Shown here: piece after piece, positions 1 to 35,655 of the stretch
Position numbering within the stretch: position 1 is the stretch's first letter
How the letters are laid out: the number at the start of each line of letters is the position of its first letter
Virus record (IMG/VR): IMGVR_UViG_3300030620_000017
Span: 1-35,655 of that record
Reading direction: 5' to 3' (one strand)
From: a virus
Lineage: Duplodnaviria; Caudoviricetes
Length of the DNA: 35,655 nucleotides
Position numbers and translations under genes: made by a program
Notes under the pieces: generated by a model
Told to the model about the DNA's origin: nothing
Database searches by the model: none
What the model saw: only the letters and a program-made list of their open reading frames with translations

Positions 1-337
1 CGGCCGAGTCGACGGCCGAGTCGACGGCCGAGTCGACGGCCGAGCCGACGGCCGAGTAGACGGCCGAGCAGACGGCCGAGTAGACGGCCGAGTAGACGGC
101 CGAGCCGACGGCCGAGTCGACGGCCGAGCCGACGGCCGAGTCGACGGCCGAGCCGACGGCCGAGCCGACGGCCGAGTCGACGGCCGAGTAGACGGCCGAG
201 CCGACGGCCGAGCGGACGGCCGAGCCGACGGCCGAGCCGACGGCCGAGCCGACGGCCGAGCCGACGGCCGAGTAGACGGCCGAGCCGACGGCCGAGCCGA
301 CGGCCGAGCCGACGGCCGAGCCGACGGCCGAGCCGAC
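1..337. repeat. 12-bp tandem repeat GACGGCCGAGNN, about 28 units, encoding xSAV on the minus strand
   Basis: Read directly; only the last two bases of the unit vary (cc, tc, ta, cg, ca = G, D, Y, R, C). Confidence 0.97.
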
Positions 338-583
338 GGGCTTCCTGAGTGCTTCTAGGACGAGCGCCGCGGTGGGAGCAGCAAAAGCCAAGACGATCGG
401 GGAATCGACCCACACCACATTGACAGGCCAGCCGAGATCGGCGTACTCGTAGCAGCGGCGGATCCCGTCCTCCACAACACGCCGATCTGCGGGCTCCGTC
501 GAGAGACCCTGATCGATCCAGAACTGTGCCCAAGGACCCATCTCGGCCTGCTGAGCATCTGTGAGAGCAGTGAGCCTCTTCAC
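1..583 (-). CDS. N-terminal part of DUF6745-like protein (continues across the junction at 35655); absent from ORF track
   Basis: GTG at 583 overlaps upstream TGA (GTGA) with GAGGAG SD; reads MKRLTALTDAQQAEMGPWAQFWIDQGLSTEPADRRVVEDGIRRCYEYADLGWPVNVVWVDSP... then (xSAV)n, open to the edge. Confidence 0.85.
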   Translation of the reverse strand, partial: MKRLTALTDAQQAEMGPWAQFWIDQGLSTEPADRRVVEDGIRRCYEYADLGWPVNVVWVDSPIVLAFAAPTAALVLEALRKPVGSAVGSAVGSAVGSAVGSAVYSAVGSAVGSAVGSAVGSAVRSAVGSAVYSAVDSAVGSAVGSAVDSAVGSAVDSAVGSAVYSAVYSAVCSAVYSAVGSAVDSAVDSAVDSA

Positions 584-4501: not shown

Positions 4502-4722
4502 ACCGCCACCCCCCGCAACCGGAGACGAGCCTGACGGGCAAGCGGGGCCAGCCGGGCGATCGCCACACGCACCTGCGGACGAGTCCAGGTAGCGATCCCG
4601 GACGGGACCGGCACACCAGCCTCGAAAGCGAGCTCACGGACCCGGCGCAGCTCATGAGGCATCGGTCTTGCCGGCAACCCGCAAGAACAGTCCCTGAGGC
4701 GGCAGTCAGCGGCGTGGATCAT
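4498..4722 (-). CDS. Hypothetical early protein (HxxxC..CSC)
   Basis: ATGA coupling both sides. Confidence 0.6.
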   Translation of the reverse strand: MIHAADCRLRDCSCGLPARPMPHELRRVRELAFEAGVPVPSGIATWTRPQVRVAIARLAPLARQARLRLRGVAV

Positions 4723-4904
4723 GCTGCGCCTCGCTCGAGTCCGAACTTCTCCTCGAACTCGGACCGCGGGATCCGGTGTGAGCGGCCGATCTTGATTGCG
4801 GGGATGTCTCCGGTGCTGATTTGGCGGTAGACGGTGGTGATGTGGAGGCGGAGGAGGTCGGCTGCTTCGGCGGGGGTGAGGAACCGGGGTGTCGCGTTAG
4901 TCAT
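4719..4904 (-). CDS. Xis-family (HTH_17-like) DNA-binding protein in the Cro position
   Basis: FLTPAEAADLLRLHITTVYRQISTGDIPAIKIGRSHRIPRSE; first gene after leftward promoter. Confidence 0.85.
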   Translation of the reverse strand: MTNATPRFLTPAEAADLLRLHITTVYRQISTGDIPAIKIGRSHRIPRSEFEEKFGLERGAA

Positions 4905-5012: not shown

Positions 5013-5363
5013 ATGACACCCGATTTCATGCACTCTGGAGCCGTACGTCTCCGCGCAGCGGCCGCGGGCATCGGGATGAAGCAGACCGAGATCGCGGAGT
5101 CGCTGGGCGTGACTCCGAAGACCGTCGGTCGCTGGTTCCGAGGTGAGGACGTCCCGACCCGGGAGCGGTTGCTTGAGCTCGAGGAGGCTCTTGACCTGCC
5201 GTCCGGTGATCTTTGTGTGCTGTTCGGCTACCTGCCGGAGGGGACCGCGGAGATCGTTGAGCGGGATGATCTGGGTCGGCTGCTGGTTAGAGTCTCCGGT
5301 TCATCTAATCCGGGGTATCTCAACGAGCCGTTGTTCGACCCCGACGTCCTGGTCGCTGCCTGA
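5013..5363 (+). CDS. Immunity repressor, XRE/Cro-C1 HTH, ending in ssrA-like tag VLVAA
   Basis: MKQTEIAESLGVTPKTVGRWFRGEDVP HTH; divergent from Xis/Cro-like gene; directly upstream of integrase. Confidence 0.88.
   Translation: MTPDFMHSGAVRLRAAAAGIGMKQTEIAESLGVTPKTVGRWFRGEDVPTRERLLELEEALDLPSGDLCVLFGYLPEGTAEIVERDDLGRLLVRVSGSSNPGYLNEPLFDPDVLVAA
5298..5325. other. Candidate attP core, dif-like: GGTTCATCTAA-TCCGGG-GTATCTCAACG
   Basis: 11-6-11 layout with imperfect inverted arms; 7/11 and 6/11 identity to the E. coli dif XerC and XerD arms; inside the repressor, upstream of the LVAA tag. Confidence 0.5.
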
Positions 5364-5408
5364 ACCTGGCACAACGGTTGGCAAGCTTTGCTAGGTTCCC
5401 GACGCACG

Positions 5409-6200
5409 ATGCACCGTGCCGACTACATCGAGCATCTCACCGCCCACGGCCTGGGCGCCAAGACCATCCGCCTGTACGTCCGCGCCGTCGAACGCGCCCA
5501 CCAGGCCCTCGGACCGCTCGAGGATGTCACCGCGACAGGGCTCGCCAGTTACGCCGATGGTCTCGCCGCCGGCTATTCGACCCGTCGGCATCTCCGGACC
5601 GCGTTGCGGGCCTACTGGTCGATGCTCGGCGTCGACGGACCGCTGCAGGCAATCAGGGTGCCGCCGAAACCCCGATCGAGATGCCTGGCACTCGACGAAG
5701 ACGACGCCCGGGCGATGATCAAAACGGCGGTAGGCTGGTATCCAGAAGGCCTCGCCGTGCTTCTCGCCATGTACCTGGCGCTCCGGTCCTCCGAGATCGC
5801 CGCAGCGCACATGGACCGCTTCGCCGACAACCTCACCTGGTACACCGTCACCGGGAAACGCGACATCACCGCCACCCTACCCGTGCACCCCACCCTCATC
5901 AGCGAGATCCGGGCCGCCGGAGTCACAGGCTGGGTGTTCCCCGGATACTACGGCCGGGAACACGTCACCCCCCAGACCATCTGGAACTGGATCCGCCTCG
6001 CCGCCGAGGAGGCAGGAGTCGACGACCGGATCTGGCCCCATCGGCTCCGACACACCGCGCTCGCCACCGCCAACGACAACACCGGAGACCTCCGCGCCGT
6101 CGCCGACTTCGCCCGCCACCGCGACGTCTCAGTCACCATGATCTACACCCGCACCACGGAACGGAACCTCCGGCGGGTCTCCGCCGCGCTCGAGTACTGA
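5409..6200 (+). CDS. int: Tyrosine recombinase/integrase, XerC-like, no N-terminal arm-binding domain
   Basis: Catalytic set LRSSEI (R), TGKRD (K), HRLRH, ARH..TMIY (Y); about 263 aa; TG-C-TAGGTT extended -10 at 5389-5397. Confidence 0.92.
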   Translation: MHRADYIEHLTAHGLGAKTIRLYVRAVERAHQALGPLEDVTATGLASYADGLAAGYSTRRHLRTALRAYWSMLGVDGPLQAIRVPPKPRSRCLALDEDDARAMIKTAVGWYPEGLAVLLAMYLALRSSEIAAAHMDRFADNLTWYTVTGKRDITATLPVHPTLISEIRAAGVTGWVFPGYYGREHVTPQTIWNWIRLAAEEAGVDDRIWPHRLRHTALATANDNTGDLRAVADFARHRDVSVTMIYTRTTERNLRRVSAALEY

Positions 6201-6205
6201 ATGAC

Positions 6206-6394
6206 TTAGTCCACCGTTAGCCGGCCGGTTCGGACAGCCCATCCGCGGATGGTTTTCCACCGCCACACGGGGTTGCGTAACTGCGGGTAGTCAGCCGCGG
6301 GCAGTACGCCGCGGTGTCGCCATTTGTTGACGGTGGATAGGGGAACGCCGAGGCGCTCCCCTATCAGGTTTAGGTCTACGAGGTCAGACGACAC
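6206..6394 (-). CDS. AlpA/MerR-like winged-HTH protein, possible directionality factor
   Basis: LIGERLGVPLSTVNKWRHRGVLP...PVWRWKTIRGW; converges on integrase. Confidence 0.72.
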   Translation of the reverse strand: MSSDLVDLNLIGERLGVPLSTVNKWRHRGVLPAADYPQLRNPVWRWKTIRGWAVRTGRLTVD

Positions 6395-6569
6395 GGAAAC
6401 CCTTCAACGTTGCGAGCATCTCCGGGGAGATGTCGACAACGATTGTCCGTATGCGGGGGGTCCCAGCCTTGATGCGGGCCTCGTACTGTGCTTTGAGGTA
6501 GGCGTCTACCTCGGCGCGGACGCTGTTCTTGTAGTTGTCGATGCGGGCTTGGCGTGTGCTGTTCTTCAT
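6384..6569 (-). CDS. Small basic hypothetical protein, leaderless
   Basis: ATG 6569 lies 7 nt after a consensus -10. Confidence 0.7.
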   Translation of the reverse strand: MKNSTRQARIDNYKNSVRAEVDAYLKAQYEARIKAGTPRIRTIVVDISPEMLATLKGFRVV

Positions 6570-6576
6570 GCCCCCC

Positions 6577-6605
6577 ATCCTACAGAAAGGTTTTCACCGT
6601 GTCAA
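6577..6605 (-). promoter_or_regulatory. Near-consensus housekeeping-sigma promoter TTGACA-N17-TAGGAT
   Basis: -35 at 6605-6600, -10 at 6582-6577. Confidence 0.85.
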
Positions 6606-7457: not shown

Positions 7458-8384
7458 TCAGTTGACACCGCGGAGCTGCTCACGGACATGCCCGTCGACC
7501 GCGGTGGGACCGCCGAAGAGTTCGATGGTTTCTGTTCCGAGGGTGAGGAGAGCGGCGACGGTTTCGGTGGGGAGTGGGCCGCTGCGGTTGACGGAGAGTA
7601 CGGGTACGCCTTCTCGGGCTGCGACGACGGTGGCGGCAGCGAGATCGGCGTAGGCGTCGCCGGCGGCGACATTGACTTTCGATGCGGTGGGGAAGTGTTT
7701 GAGGGCGGCTTCGGCCAGGGTGGCATGCCGGTTGTCTCCGTAGGTTTCGATCAAGTCCATCAGATAGATCCTCTCTCGATAGGCTTCGATGAAGTCGCCG
7801 AAGACCGGGTCGCAGCATTGCGTGGTGGTGATGCCCTGGACCTCACGGTGCTTCTTCTGGTTGTCGCGGGTTGGGGTCCAGCCGAACACTCGGCTGAGGA
7901 CCTCGTTCTCGACGGCCCAGAACTCCTCCTGCGCCGCCGTCAAAGCGGTGTCGGCAGCGCCGACCATGTAGTAGGTCGGCCAGTCCCGTTTCTCCGGGTC
8001 GTTGAGATGCGCCCCATGTGAGATCCACGCGGAGCGTCCCTCAAGCCAGACGAGCCGGCCGTCGACCTTCCAGGGGAGACAGGACCCGCGGTACGCGAAG
8101 CCACGCCAGCCCCGCACCCAGTAGTGGTAATGGTCGACGTTGGCCATCTGGTCTTTGCCGACTGTCAACGGGTCGTAACCCTGGTCGACGAGCCCTTGGA
8201 GCTCCCGGAGGAGGGCGGAGCCGCCGGTGTGATGACCGACGTGGAATCGGTCGAATCGTTCCCGGGTACTGTCAGGGTTCGAGGACCAGTCGACAATCGA
8301 ACCCCACTCCTCGTGGGTGACGACGACAACCCCGGCGGCGGTGAAGGCGTCACGGATGGCGAGCGCAGCTGTGCGGCGATCCAA
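7458..8384 (-). CDS. Endolysin: N-acetylmuramoyl-L-alanine amidase plus one cell-wall-binding-2 (CWB2) repeat
   Basis: HEEWG..GHHTGG..HYWVRGW..AY..EGR..GAH..HRE..C amidase_2 pattern; C-terminal GDNRHAT..GDAYAD..PVLSV..FGGPTAV. Confidence 0.85.
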   Translation of the reverse strand: MDRRTAALAIRDAFTAAGVVVVTHEEWGSIVDWSSNPDSTRERFDRFHVGHHTGGSALLRELQGLVDQGYDPLTVGKDQMANVDHYHYWVRGWRGFAYRGSCLPWKVDGRLVWLEGRSAWISHGAHLNDPEKRDWPTYYMVGAADTALTAAQEEFWAVENEVLSRVFGWTPTRDNQKKHREVQGITTTQCCDPVFGDFIEAYRERIYLMDLIETYGDNRHATLAEAALKHFPTASKVNVAAGDAYADLAAATVVAAREGVPVLSVNRSGPLPTETVAALLTLGTETIELFGGPTAVDGHVREQLRGVN

Positions 8385-34727: not shown

Positions 34728-35655
34728 CTATGTGCGTCGGCTCAACGCGGCGTAATCATCCCGGCGGAGACCGACACGCCACGCCGCGGCCGTGACCGGA
34801 TCCGAAATCTCAGACGGCACAGTCTCCGCGTAGCGGCGACGGGTGCCGTCACGTTCCACCGAACCGTTCGTCATCAAAAGCAGCCTCACCCCCGGCGGGT
34901 AGAGCCCGGCGGGCGGGTCGTAGAGCAGCAGATCATGCGGAGCGTTCCCCGGGTCGGGTGCCGATGCCACCGGTGTCAACCCGGCATGGGTGATCCACCT
35001 GTCCCATCCATAGGACTCGATGGCGGCCCTGCGGACCTCGGCGTTCTGCTCGCCGGCTATCAGCTCCGGCGACGGTTCCTCGACCACCCAGGAGGGGACA
35101 TTGAGGCCATGCCAGAACCACAATCCCCAGCCGTCCCGGAATCGGATCGCCGGGGCGGCCTCGTGATGTAGCCGCCGACCGTCGCCGGTCGTCTCGAGAT
35201 GAATCGTCTGGGGAGTGTCACAGACCATCACGAACTCGCGGTGAGGCCACCACCATCCAGCGGCGTTGGCATCCTGGTACGCGCCAAGCCGATGCCACTG
35301 GTCACCCTCGAGGTCGAGACCTGCGATGTCCCGGAAGAAGGTGAGCCAGCCCAGCCAACCAGACCACCATCGGCCGCCCAGCCGCTTCCACCAGGCCGAG
35401 CGGACGGCCGAGTAGACGGCCGAGCCGACGGCCGAGCCGACGGCCGAGCCGACGGCCGAGCCGACGGCCGAGCGGACGGCCGAGTCGACGGCCGAGTCGA
35501 CGGCCGAGTCGACGGCCGAGTCGACGGCCGAGCGGACGGCCGAGTCGACGGCCGAGTCGACGGCCGAGTCGACGGCCGAGCCGACGGCCGAGTAGACGGC
35601 CGAGCCGACGGCCGAGTAGACGGCCGAGTAGACGGCCGAGCCGACGGCCGAGTCG
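34728..35655 (-). CDS. C-terminal part of DUF6745-like protein (frame open from the right edge)
   Basis: (xSAV)n then WWKRLGGRWWSGWLGWLTFFRD..GWWWPHREFVMVCDTP..RLHHEAAPAIRFRDGWGLWFWHG..EQNAEVRRAAIE..NGSVERDGTRRRY..VP..AAAW. Confidence 0.82.
   Translation of the reverse strand, partial: DSAVGSAVYSAVYSAVGSAVYSAVGSAVDSAVDSAVDSAVRSAVDSAVDSAVDSAVDSAVRSAVGSAVGSAVGSAVGSAVYSAVRSAWWKRLGGRWWSGWLGWLTFFRDIAGLDLEGDQWHRLGAYQDANAAGWWWPHREFVMVCDTPQTIHLETTGDGRRLHHEAAPAIRFRDGWGLWFWHGLNVPSWVVEEPSPELIAGEQNAEVRRAAIESYGWDRWITHAGLTPVASAPDPGNAPHDLLLYDPPAGLYPPGVRLLLMTNGSVERDGTRRRYAETVPSEISDPVTAAAWRVGLRRDDYAALSRRT
35394..35655. repeat. 12-bp tandem repeat, about 22 units, same array as 1-337
   Basis: Read directly; last 11 nt identical to first 11 nt of window. 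Confidence 0.97.

What the first reader, a model, noticed from the sequence alone, without database searches (positions are those of the whole stretch)
5013..6200. Possible integration-dependent immunity switch using a dif-like site inside the repressor gene
Seen: the repressor ends ...DPDVLVAA; codons GSSNPGYLN just upstream contain GGTTCATCTAA-TCCGGG-GTATCTCAACG (5298-5325), an 11-6-11 site with 13/22 arm identity to E. coli dif; the next gene is a ~263-aa XerC-like recombinase lacking an arm-binding domain. Established: in mycobacteriophage BPs-type integration-dependent immunity, attP lies in the repressor and integration removes an ssrA-like ClpXP tag, typically at tRNA attB sites. Inference: this phage may use the same logic but with a dif or dif-like target and its own Xer-like enzyme, a combination I do not recognise as described. 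No tRNA-like sequence was visible in the gene.
Basis: partly seen in the sequence, partly recalled or inferred. Interest (0 to 1): 0.85.

Follow-up and report, generated by a model that had tools for sequence, protein, structure and literature searches.

The report
Phage switch splices repressor into tRNA
This soil phage carries a copy of the first bases of a host tRNA gene inside its repressor gene; in related prophages insertion there joins the repressor to the tRNA, whose own bases stop it short, which likely removes a destruction tag and locks in dormancy, so the target is a tRNA start and not the dif site.

Summary
The immunity switch is supported; the dif target is not. The site at 5309-5323 matches nucleotides 1-15 of Acidimicrobiia tRNA-Asn at 14/15, on the repressor's strand. 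The 13/22 dif match is chance-level and the spacer fails (1/6). Four related prophages were mapped at both ends (tRNA-Asn, -Gly, -Val, -Thr), a fifth at one end. Each sits upstream of the tRNA with a core of only 8-10 bp. The repressor runs into the tRNA, and in 3 of 4 it stops at the TAG formed by tRNA bases 8-10, losing its Ala-ending tail. The host tRNA promoter ends up facing the integrase, and a -10-like hexamer in the repressor gene likely replaces it. For this phage I predict a 116-to-101-residue cut; its own prophage was not found. Known BPs-type systems use the tRNA 3' half, antisense (9/9 cultured phages checked), and tag the integrase (0/120 here end in AA). Integration at tRNA 5' ends is known separately (159/3,919 Islander islands); I did not find the combination in print. 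The scan noted the standard switch on other DNA, not this form. New variant; proteolysis and promoter activity untested.

The parts
4719..4904 (-). Small HTH_17 protein, divergent from the repressor (Cro-like position; could also be an excisionase, untested)
   Evidence: Pfam HTH_17 E 3.5e-15; ORF list
5013..5363 (+). Immunity repressor, 116 aa in the free phage, ends LVAA; predicted 101 aa in the prophage
   Evidence: host-class tmRNA tags end ALAA in 5 of 5 genomes
5288..5293 (+). -10-like hexamer TAGAGT, 15 nt upstream of the spacer; putative replacement promoter for the tRNA after integration
   Evidence: TAnnnT within 36 nt upstream of the site in 13 of 22 relatives against 8 of 152 control windows; 32 of 34 empty host tRNA-Asn sites. 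Activity untested
5301..5308 (+). Left integrase-binding arm of attP (inferred)
   Evidence: 8-6-8 layout; 4 of 8 complementary to the right arm here, 8 of 8 and 7 of 8 in two mapped prophages
5309..5314 (+). 6-bp crossover spacer TCCGGG = tRNA-Asn nt 1-6
   Evidence: the same spacer stands at the junction of prophage G348
5315..5323 (+). Right arm, mimics tRNA nt 7-15; codon 102 (TAT, 5316-5318) lies where the tRNA has TAG
   Evidence: 14/15 match; frame conserved in 14 of 15 best matches
5316..5363 (+). 15-residue tail with the ssrA-like end, predicted to be split off on integration
   Evidence: remnants with Ala-ending tails precede int in the mapped prophages
5409..6200 (+). Arm-less tyrosine integrase, 263 aa, catalytic residues invariant (R126, K150, H211, R214, H237, Y246), no Ala-Ala tag
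   Evidence: naming of the six residues as the catalytic set is recalled

Best explanation
The phage likely integrates with its own arm-less integrase at the very start of the host tRNA-Asn gene, crossing over in the 6 bp (5309-5314) that match tRNA bases 1-6, as related prophages do at four kinds of tRNA. Shown in relatives: the prophage sits upstream of the tRNA; one junction reads repressor-then-tRNA on the same strand, the other host promoter, spacer, repressor tail, int. Shown by sequence: in this phage's frame tRNA bases 8-10 (TAG) replace codon 102 (TAT). Inferred: the repressor would shrink from 116 to 101 residues and lose its LVAA end; the tail is an ssrA-like Clp tag, so only the prophage form would be stable and give immunity; a -10 element inside the repressor gene would take over transcription of the tRNA; the host tRNA promoter would face int.
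For: Site: 14/15 to tRNA-Asn nt 1-15, unique in the window; that tRNA start occurs in 83 of 151 genomes of the class, control 0. Family: 15 of 37 non-redundant repressors hold a sense match of 11/14 or better with an identical 6-bp spacer to a fixed tRNA set from one genome, 14 of the 15 in the TAG frame; antisense 5 of 37; codon-shuffle null 3.1 +/- 1.6, maximum 9 in 200. Prophages with both junctions: G512 (tRNA-Gly, 38,310 bp apart on one 154,690-bp contig, capsid and portal between, host genes outside), G001 (tRNA-Asn, 36,554 bp), G938 (tRNA-Val), G966 (tRNA-Thr); one junction: G348. Host flanks match what lies upstream of empty tRNA genes in the same orientation: G348 24 of 34 Asn loci, G938 3 of 9 Val, G966 1 of 1 Thr. 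TAG stop in G001, G512, G938. Tails: 23 of 36 end AA, 6 more VA, selected blind to the end. On the quick tree this integrase lies among Asn-site integrases, and Val and Arg groups cluster apart.
Against: No prophage of this phage itself: contigs of 8 runs show no joint at the site and several run through it. G966 uses another frame and stops at TAA in the anticodon loop; four tRNA-Arg(TCT)-type phages and L012 are off the TAG frame, and the Arg frame has no stop inside the tRNA. The G001 junction lacks 3 G of the spacer (assembly slip or mutation). The G512 ORF has no Pfam hit and scores weakly on my repressor profiles (E 0.015-0.04), and its integrase is distant (30%, long branch). G938 and G966 junctions are on separate contigs of a bin. 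9 of 22 relatives lack a TAnnnT near the site; in G001 the nearest is 49 nt away. 22 of 62 full-length integrase loci have no repressor upstream; some are junctions or short contigs, about a dozen are other contexts. Relatives are not independent samples. No proteolysis, promoter or recombination data.
Confidence: 0.85

Rival explanations
1. Integration at the tRNA-Asn 5' end is real, but the tail is not a working degradation tag: truncation is incidental and immunity does not depend on integration.
For: The integrases lack the second tag that sets lysogeny frequency in BPs (0 of 120 end AA; PMC9262239); 7 of 36 repressors end in neither AA nor VA; frame exceptions exist.
Against: AA ends in 23 of 36 repressors against 5 of 123 other ORFs; host tags end ALAA; the frame is kept across unrelated repressors and several tRNAs.
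Confidence: 0.09
2. One reading: the phage integrates at dif or a dif-like chromosome site, with or without host XerCD.
For: 13/22 arm identity to E. coli dif, 12/22 to a host-class dif candidate; simple 6-bp-spacer site; Xer-sized enzyme.
Against: Chance-level score; spacer 1/6 and 3/6; 5 of 5 mapped prophages break at tRNA starts; far below Xer cut-offs. tRNA-Asn nt 7-17 itself matches the XerD arm at 6-7 of 11, which explains much of the likeness.
Confidence: 0.02
3. The site is a relic: this phage no longer integrates, or uses another site.
For: Only the free form was seen in the runs laid; the arms here are only 4 of 8 complementary.
Against: Integrase intact with all conserved residues; 70%-identical relatives keep spacer, frame and AA tail while the repressors diverge.
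Confidence: 0.04

Closest known systems
Integration-dependent immunity of mycobacteriophage BPs and Cluster G, I, N, P and Gordonia phages (PMC9262239, PMC4557955, PMC5559632; passages read)
   Same: rep-int co-oriented, divergent Cro-like gene, attP inside rep, ssrA-like tail lost on integration, tRNA attB, arm-less tyrosine integrase; best cultured hits are these integrases at 26-33%.
   Different: Target is the tRNA 5' end on the repressor's strand with an 8-10 bp core, not a 35-bp core holding the tRNA 3' end. 9 of 9 cultured phages match a tRNA 3' half antisense at 23-27/30; 0 of 37 family members exceed 21/30. The stop is usually the tRNA's own bases 8-10; promoters are swapped; integrase untagged; separate clade on a midpoint-rooted quick tree.
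Elements that replace the 5' end of a tRNA gene (Zhao and Williams 2002, not held, cited in PMC6563490; 159 of 3,919 Islander islands, PMC4383910)
   Same: Element sits upstream of the tRNA and restores its 5' part.
   Different: No link to a repressor or a stop codon in the passages read; Islander lists crossover subsites only at the anticodon loop, T loop and T/acceptor junction, not at nt 1-6.
tRNA-dependent lysogeny (Fionnbharth; PMC10865867, passages read)
   Same: Short (about 10 bp) core at a tRNA gene.
   Different: There the host tRNA is destroyed and a phage tRNA complements it; here the tRNA is rebuilt (G512, G938, G966) and the window has no tRNA gene.
dif/Xer-exploiting elements such as CTX phage (recalled, no call)
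   Same: Simple two-arm site with a 6-bp spacer.
   Different: Those use host XerCD at dif; this phage has its own integrase and relatives map to tRNA genes.

Membership tests
BPs-type integration-dependent immunity | rep and int adjacent and co-oriented, divergent Cro-like gene | tested here: met
BPs-type integration-dependent immunity | attP inside the repressor ORF | tested here: met
   Junctions split the repressor in four prophage relatives; for the window by homology of the site
BPs-type integration-dependent immunity | ssrA-like C-terminus on the phage form, lost on integration | tested here: met
   23 of 36 end AA; host tags end ALAA; lost in 4 of 4 mapped prophages. Sequence only
BPs-type integration-dependent immunity | Tag causes proteolysis; short form gives immunity | not testable with these tools
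   Needs expression in a host
BPs-type integration-dependent immunity | attB overlaps a tRNA gene | tested here: met
   5 of 5 mapped prophages
BPs-type integration-dependent immunity | Common core of about 35 bp holding the tRNA 3' end | tested here: not met
   Cores 8-10 bp at the 5' end; no 3'-half match in 37 repressors
BPs-type integration-dependent immunity | Integrase also carries an ssrA-like tag | tested here: not met
   0 of 120 end AA, 4 end in A; 8 of 9 cultured integrases end AA or VA
BPs-type integration-dependent immunity | No arm-binding domain | tested here: met
   263 aa, profile aligns from position 3-5 to XerA/XerD-sized chains
BPs-type integration-dependent immunity | No directionality factor | tested here: inconclusive
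   HTH_17 genes flank the cassette; role unknown
dif/Xer-targeting elements | Spacer identical to host dif | tested here: not met
   1/6 (E. coli), 3/6 (one host-class candidate, found in 1 of 5 genomes)
dif/Xer-targeting elements | Prophage junctions at dif | tested here: not met
   All mapped junctions at tRNA starts
XerC/XerD | Reaches the curated model cut-off | tested here: not met
   53.7 vs 335 and 55.2 vs 330 bits
5'-tRNA-fragment islands | 5' fragment upstream, full tRNA downstream, integrase inside | tested here: met
   G512 and G001 on single contigs
tRNA-dependent lysogeny | Host tRNA not rebuilt and phage encodes the same tRNA | tested here: not met
   tRNA whole at the junction in 3 of 4 (G001 has a 3-nt gap); no tRNA in the window

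The most novel reading that the evidence does not exclude
The lysogen's repressor is wired into tRNA maturation. Its message runs into the pre-tRNA, and RNase P cuts at tRNA base 1, seven bases before the borrowed stop codon. A cut message has no stop, so tmRNA would put an ALAA tag back on the repressor. Immunity and induction would then be set by the race between translation and tRNA processing, while the growth-regulated host tRNA promoter drives the untagged integrase. The geometry is shown; the RNase P, tmRNA and promoter-control steps rest on general knowledge and are untested.
Probability: 0.2. Interest if true: 0.88.

Novelty: new variant of a known kind. Interest (0 to 1): 0.66.

Why it matters
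It shows a second, mirror-image way to build integration-dependent immunity: the stop codon comes from conserved tRNA bases (26 of 47 tRNAs of G006 have TAG at 8-10), so one layout can move between tRNA targets by changing 6 bp, as the family appears to have done for Asn, Val, Thr, Gly, Ala and Arg. It implies that an essential host tRNA depends on a phage promoter in the lysogen, and that lysogeny frequency is tuned without an integrase tag. The 8-10 bp core is easy to miss in att searches that expect 25 bp or more (PMC9262239). The 263-aa arm-less integrases, with an attB upstream of the tRNA body, are candidates for integration vectors.

Tried and rejected
dif target: rejected. tRNA 3'-half core: none in the window (longest exact match 9 nt) or in 37 relatives. 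Junction reads for this phage: none in 8 of 12 listed runs, all contigs; one 156-nt contig of a relative stops at 5316, which proves nothing. Viral-contig scans for tRNA starts (15, 122 and 23 loci) gave no further repressor-tRNA junction. G348's second junction was not found. A leaderless promoter before int: only 2 of 36 loci have a -10 5-8 nt before an in-frame start, not supported; the sigma-70 scan finds no promoter or terminator between 4600 and 6200. One search's synteny check returned nothing through a script fault and was redone. One search's frame counts are distorted by one mis-called tRNA-Asn boundary (3 rows), and its expanded tRNA set was gathered after the sites were seen, so frame statistics are taken. 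One search's repressor set was seeded from AA/VA-ending ORFs, so tail statistics are taken. Eight near-duplicate repressors were dropped in each count (45 to 37; 44 to 36); L058, identical to the window, was left out. The careful tree did not finish; the quick tree has no outgroup. Not-in-print rests on searches; Broussard 2013, Zhao and Williams 2002 and Mageeney 2020 were not held, and no supplements were opened (the Gordonia att table on figshare could hold 5'-type sites).

Full report
Setting. The window is a single 35,655-bp virus record with terminase small subunit, portal, ClpP-type protease, capsid and WhiB genes. Both ends lie in a 12-nt repeat array; circularity is likely but not shown (terminal overlap 11 nt). 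The cassette is HTH_17 gene (4719-4904, minus), repressor (5013-5363, plus), integrase (5409-6200, plus). The host is likely Acidimicrobiia, from the record titles of genomes holding relatives.

The dif claim. The 28-mer and its 13/22 score are real, but that score is reached at 7 of 71,256 window positions and in 7.4% of codon-shuffled repressor genes. The spacer, which must match for tyrosine recombination (general knowledge), agrees at 1/6 with E. coli dif and 3/6 with the one dif candidate found in five host-class genomes. The enzyme is no XerC or XerD. Its best cultured relatives are the integrases of Gordonia phage Clown and mycobacteriophage Charlie at 29-31%.

What the site is. Integrase relatives from viral, genome and metagenome collections mostly have an HTH gene just upstream, with a shared DNA motif near its end although the proteins differ. 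The motif is the start of a tRNA gene on the same strand. Window 5309-5323 matches tRNA-Asn nt 1-15 at 14/15 and nothing else in the window reaches 12/15. Against the 47 tRNAs of one genome, 15 of 37 non-redundant repressors have a sense match of at least 11/14 with an identical first 6 bp (antisense 5; shuffles 3.1 +/- 1.6, maximum 9 of 200), and in 14 of the 15 tRNA bases 8-10 fall on one codon. That codon is sense in the phage and TAG in the tRNA. Most of the rest fit tRNA alleles absent from that genome: seven carry a start that in viral loci is mostly tRNA-Val(TAC) (51 of 73), all seven in the TAG frame; four carry tRNA-Arg(TCT) nt 1-14 in another frame.

Prophages. The integrase profile hit 6 of 401 genomes of the class, 3 of 401 of the phylum and 8 of 301 of the order, ten distinct genomes. 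Four hold an integrated junction (G348, G512, G938, G966), two hold the free-phage layout (G007, G076), four have no repressor cassette (G006, G232, G297, G550). G512 has both junctions on one contig, 38,310 bp apart, with capsid and portal between and ABC-transporter, M23, YkuD and MFS genes outside; its upstream ORF ends at the TAG of tRNA-Gly. The viral record G001 has both, 36,554 bp apart, with an HTH ORF ending at the TAG of tRNA-Asn; three G of the spacer are missing there, while the rest of the tRNA equals that of L056. G938 has an HTH repressor (E 6e-15 on my profile) ending at the TAG of tRNA-Val, and its two phage arms are a perfect 8-bp inverted repeat. G966 joins an HTH repressor to tRNA-Thr in another frame, stopping at TAA in the anticodon loop. 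G348 shows the integrase-side junction after dnaG-rpoD, where tRNA-Asn normally lies. The host flanks match the DNA upstream of empty tRNA genes in 24 of 34 Asn, 3 of 9 Val and 1 of 1 Thr loci. Shared cores are 8-10 bp. The split-off tails end SAA, VAA, RTA and VPA.

Tag and promoter. Repressors chosen without their last 20 residues end AA in 23 of 36 and VA in 6; other upstream ORFs end AA in 5 of 123; integrases in 0 of 120. Host tmRNA tags end ALAA in 5 of 5 genomes. Because the prophage lands between the tRNA and its promoter, a new promoter is needed. A TAnnnT hexamer lies within 36 nt upstream of the site in 13 of 22 assigned phage sites, against 8 of 152 windows further up the same genes and 32 of 34 empty host sites; at the four junctions it is 9, 23, 31 and 49 nt away. 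Relatives share descent, so the Fisher value (5e-9) overstates the case. Read-through from the repressor promoter is the alternative for the nine without one.

Mechanism. Shown in relatives: crossover at tRNA nt 1-6, repressor fused to the tRNA on the same strand, tail split off, host promoter facing int. Shown by sequence for this phage: spacer, frame and tail. Inferred: integration at tRNA-Asn, a 101-residue prophage repressor, Clp degradation of the long form, promoter activity. Unexplained: what limits lysogeny without an integrase tag, what keeps the prophage in place with a tRNA promoter before int, and where the Arg(TCT) group's repressor stops. No junction of this phage was seen in eight runs.

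Comparison. The review PMC9262239 (passages) defines the known system by a 35-bp core with the tRNA 3' end, tags on both repressor and integrase, and no arm sites. Nine of nine cultured phages fetched with a repressor upstream match a tRNA 3' half antisense at 23-27/30; no family member exceeds 21/30 (two more fetched phages had no such repressor and were left out). The two groups separate on the quick tree with support 99 (midpoint root). So this works like BPs but fails two defining features, and I do not file it as a member. Integration at tRNA 5' ends is known but uncommon (PMC6563490; 159 of 3,919 in PMC4383910). Passages of PMC4557955, PMC9934374, PMC5559632, PMC6109161, PMC10865867, PMC1635311, PMC9897764 and PMC12540744 describe no repressor-linked 5' case. 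Ten searches found none either, but three key papers were not held and no supplements were read. Earlier scan notes describe the standard 3'-half form on other genomes, and none resembles this integrase by sequence.

Verdict. Observation partly confirmed, interpretation partly supported, new variant of a known kind, interest 0.66.

Noticed in passing
L190, L192, L196, L207 (upstream of tRNA-Asn); L140:151-723: In 4 of 30 class genomes an ORF of about 190-250 aa with an N-terminal HTH ends at the TAG of tRNA-Asn bases 8-10 and holds the tRNA promoter in its 3' end; the rest looks LAGLIDADG-like by eye (recalled, no Pfam hit). A phage HTH+HNH gene ends the same way. Same borrowed stop in a different kind of element.
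   Followed up: partly
L024, L025 (G006:C1:1228056), L031, L117: Members of this integrase family without a repressor, preceded in frame by extra copies of the N-terminal domain.
   Followed up: no
L006, L079, L082, L084: One integrase clade carries tRNA-Arg(TCT) nt 1-14 almost exactly, with the TAG out of frame; the repressor frame has no stop within the tRNA, so the prophage repressor end would be set by host DNA.
   Followed up: partly
L007, L009: Repressors with the site-like motif far from the end and a long extension ending EDVA; in L007 a further ORF lies between repressor and int.
   Followed up: no
L361 (G966:C145): The host rRNA-methyltransferase-like ORF runs across the integrase-side junction and gains a phage-encoded end; gene name by eye.
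   Followed up: no
window 1-350 and 35274-35655: 12-nt tandem repeat array at both contig ends, next to a DUF6745 ORF; probably one low-complexity gene where the assembly broke.
   Followed up: no
window 6206-6605, minus: Two small ORFs convergent with int, one weakly HTH_17, behind a 10/12 sigma-70-like promoter at 6605-6577; candidate directionality or regulatory genes.
   Followed up: no
window 7458-8384 and 1850-2770, minus: Probable lysin with a CWB2 cell-wall domain, and an RNA-ligase-family gene beside a DNA methylase and WhiB.
   Followed up: no
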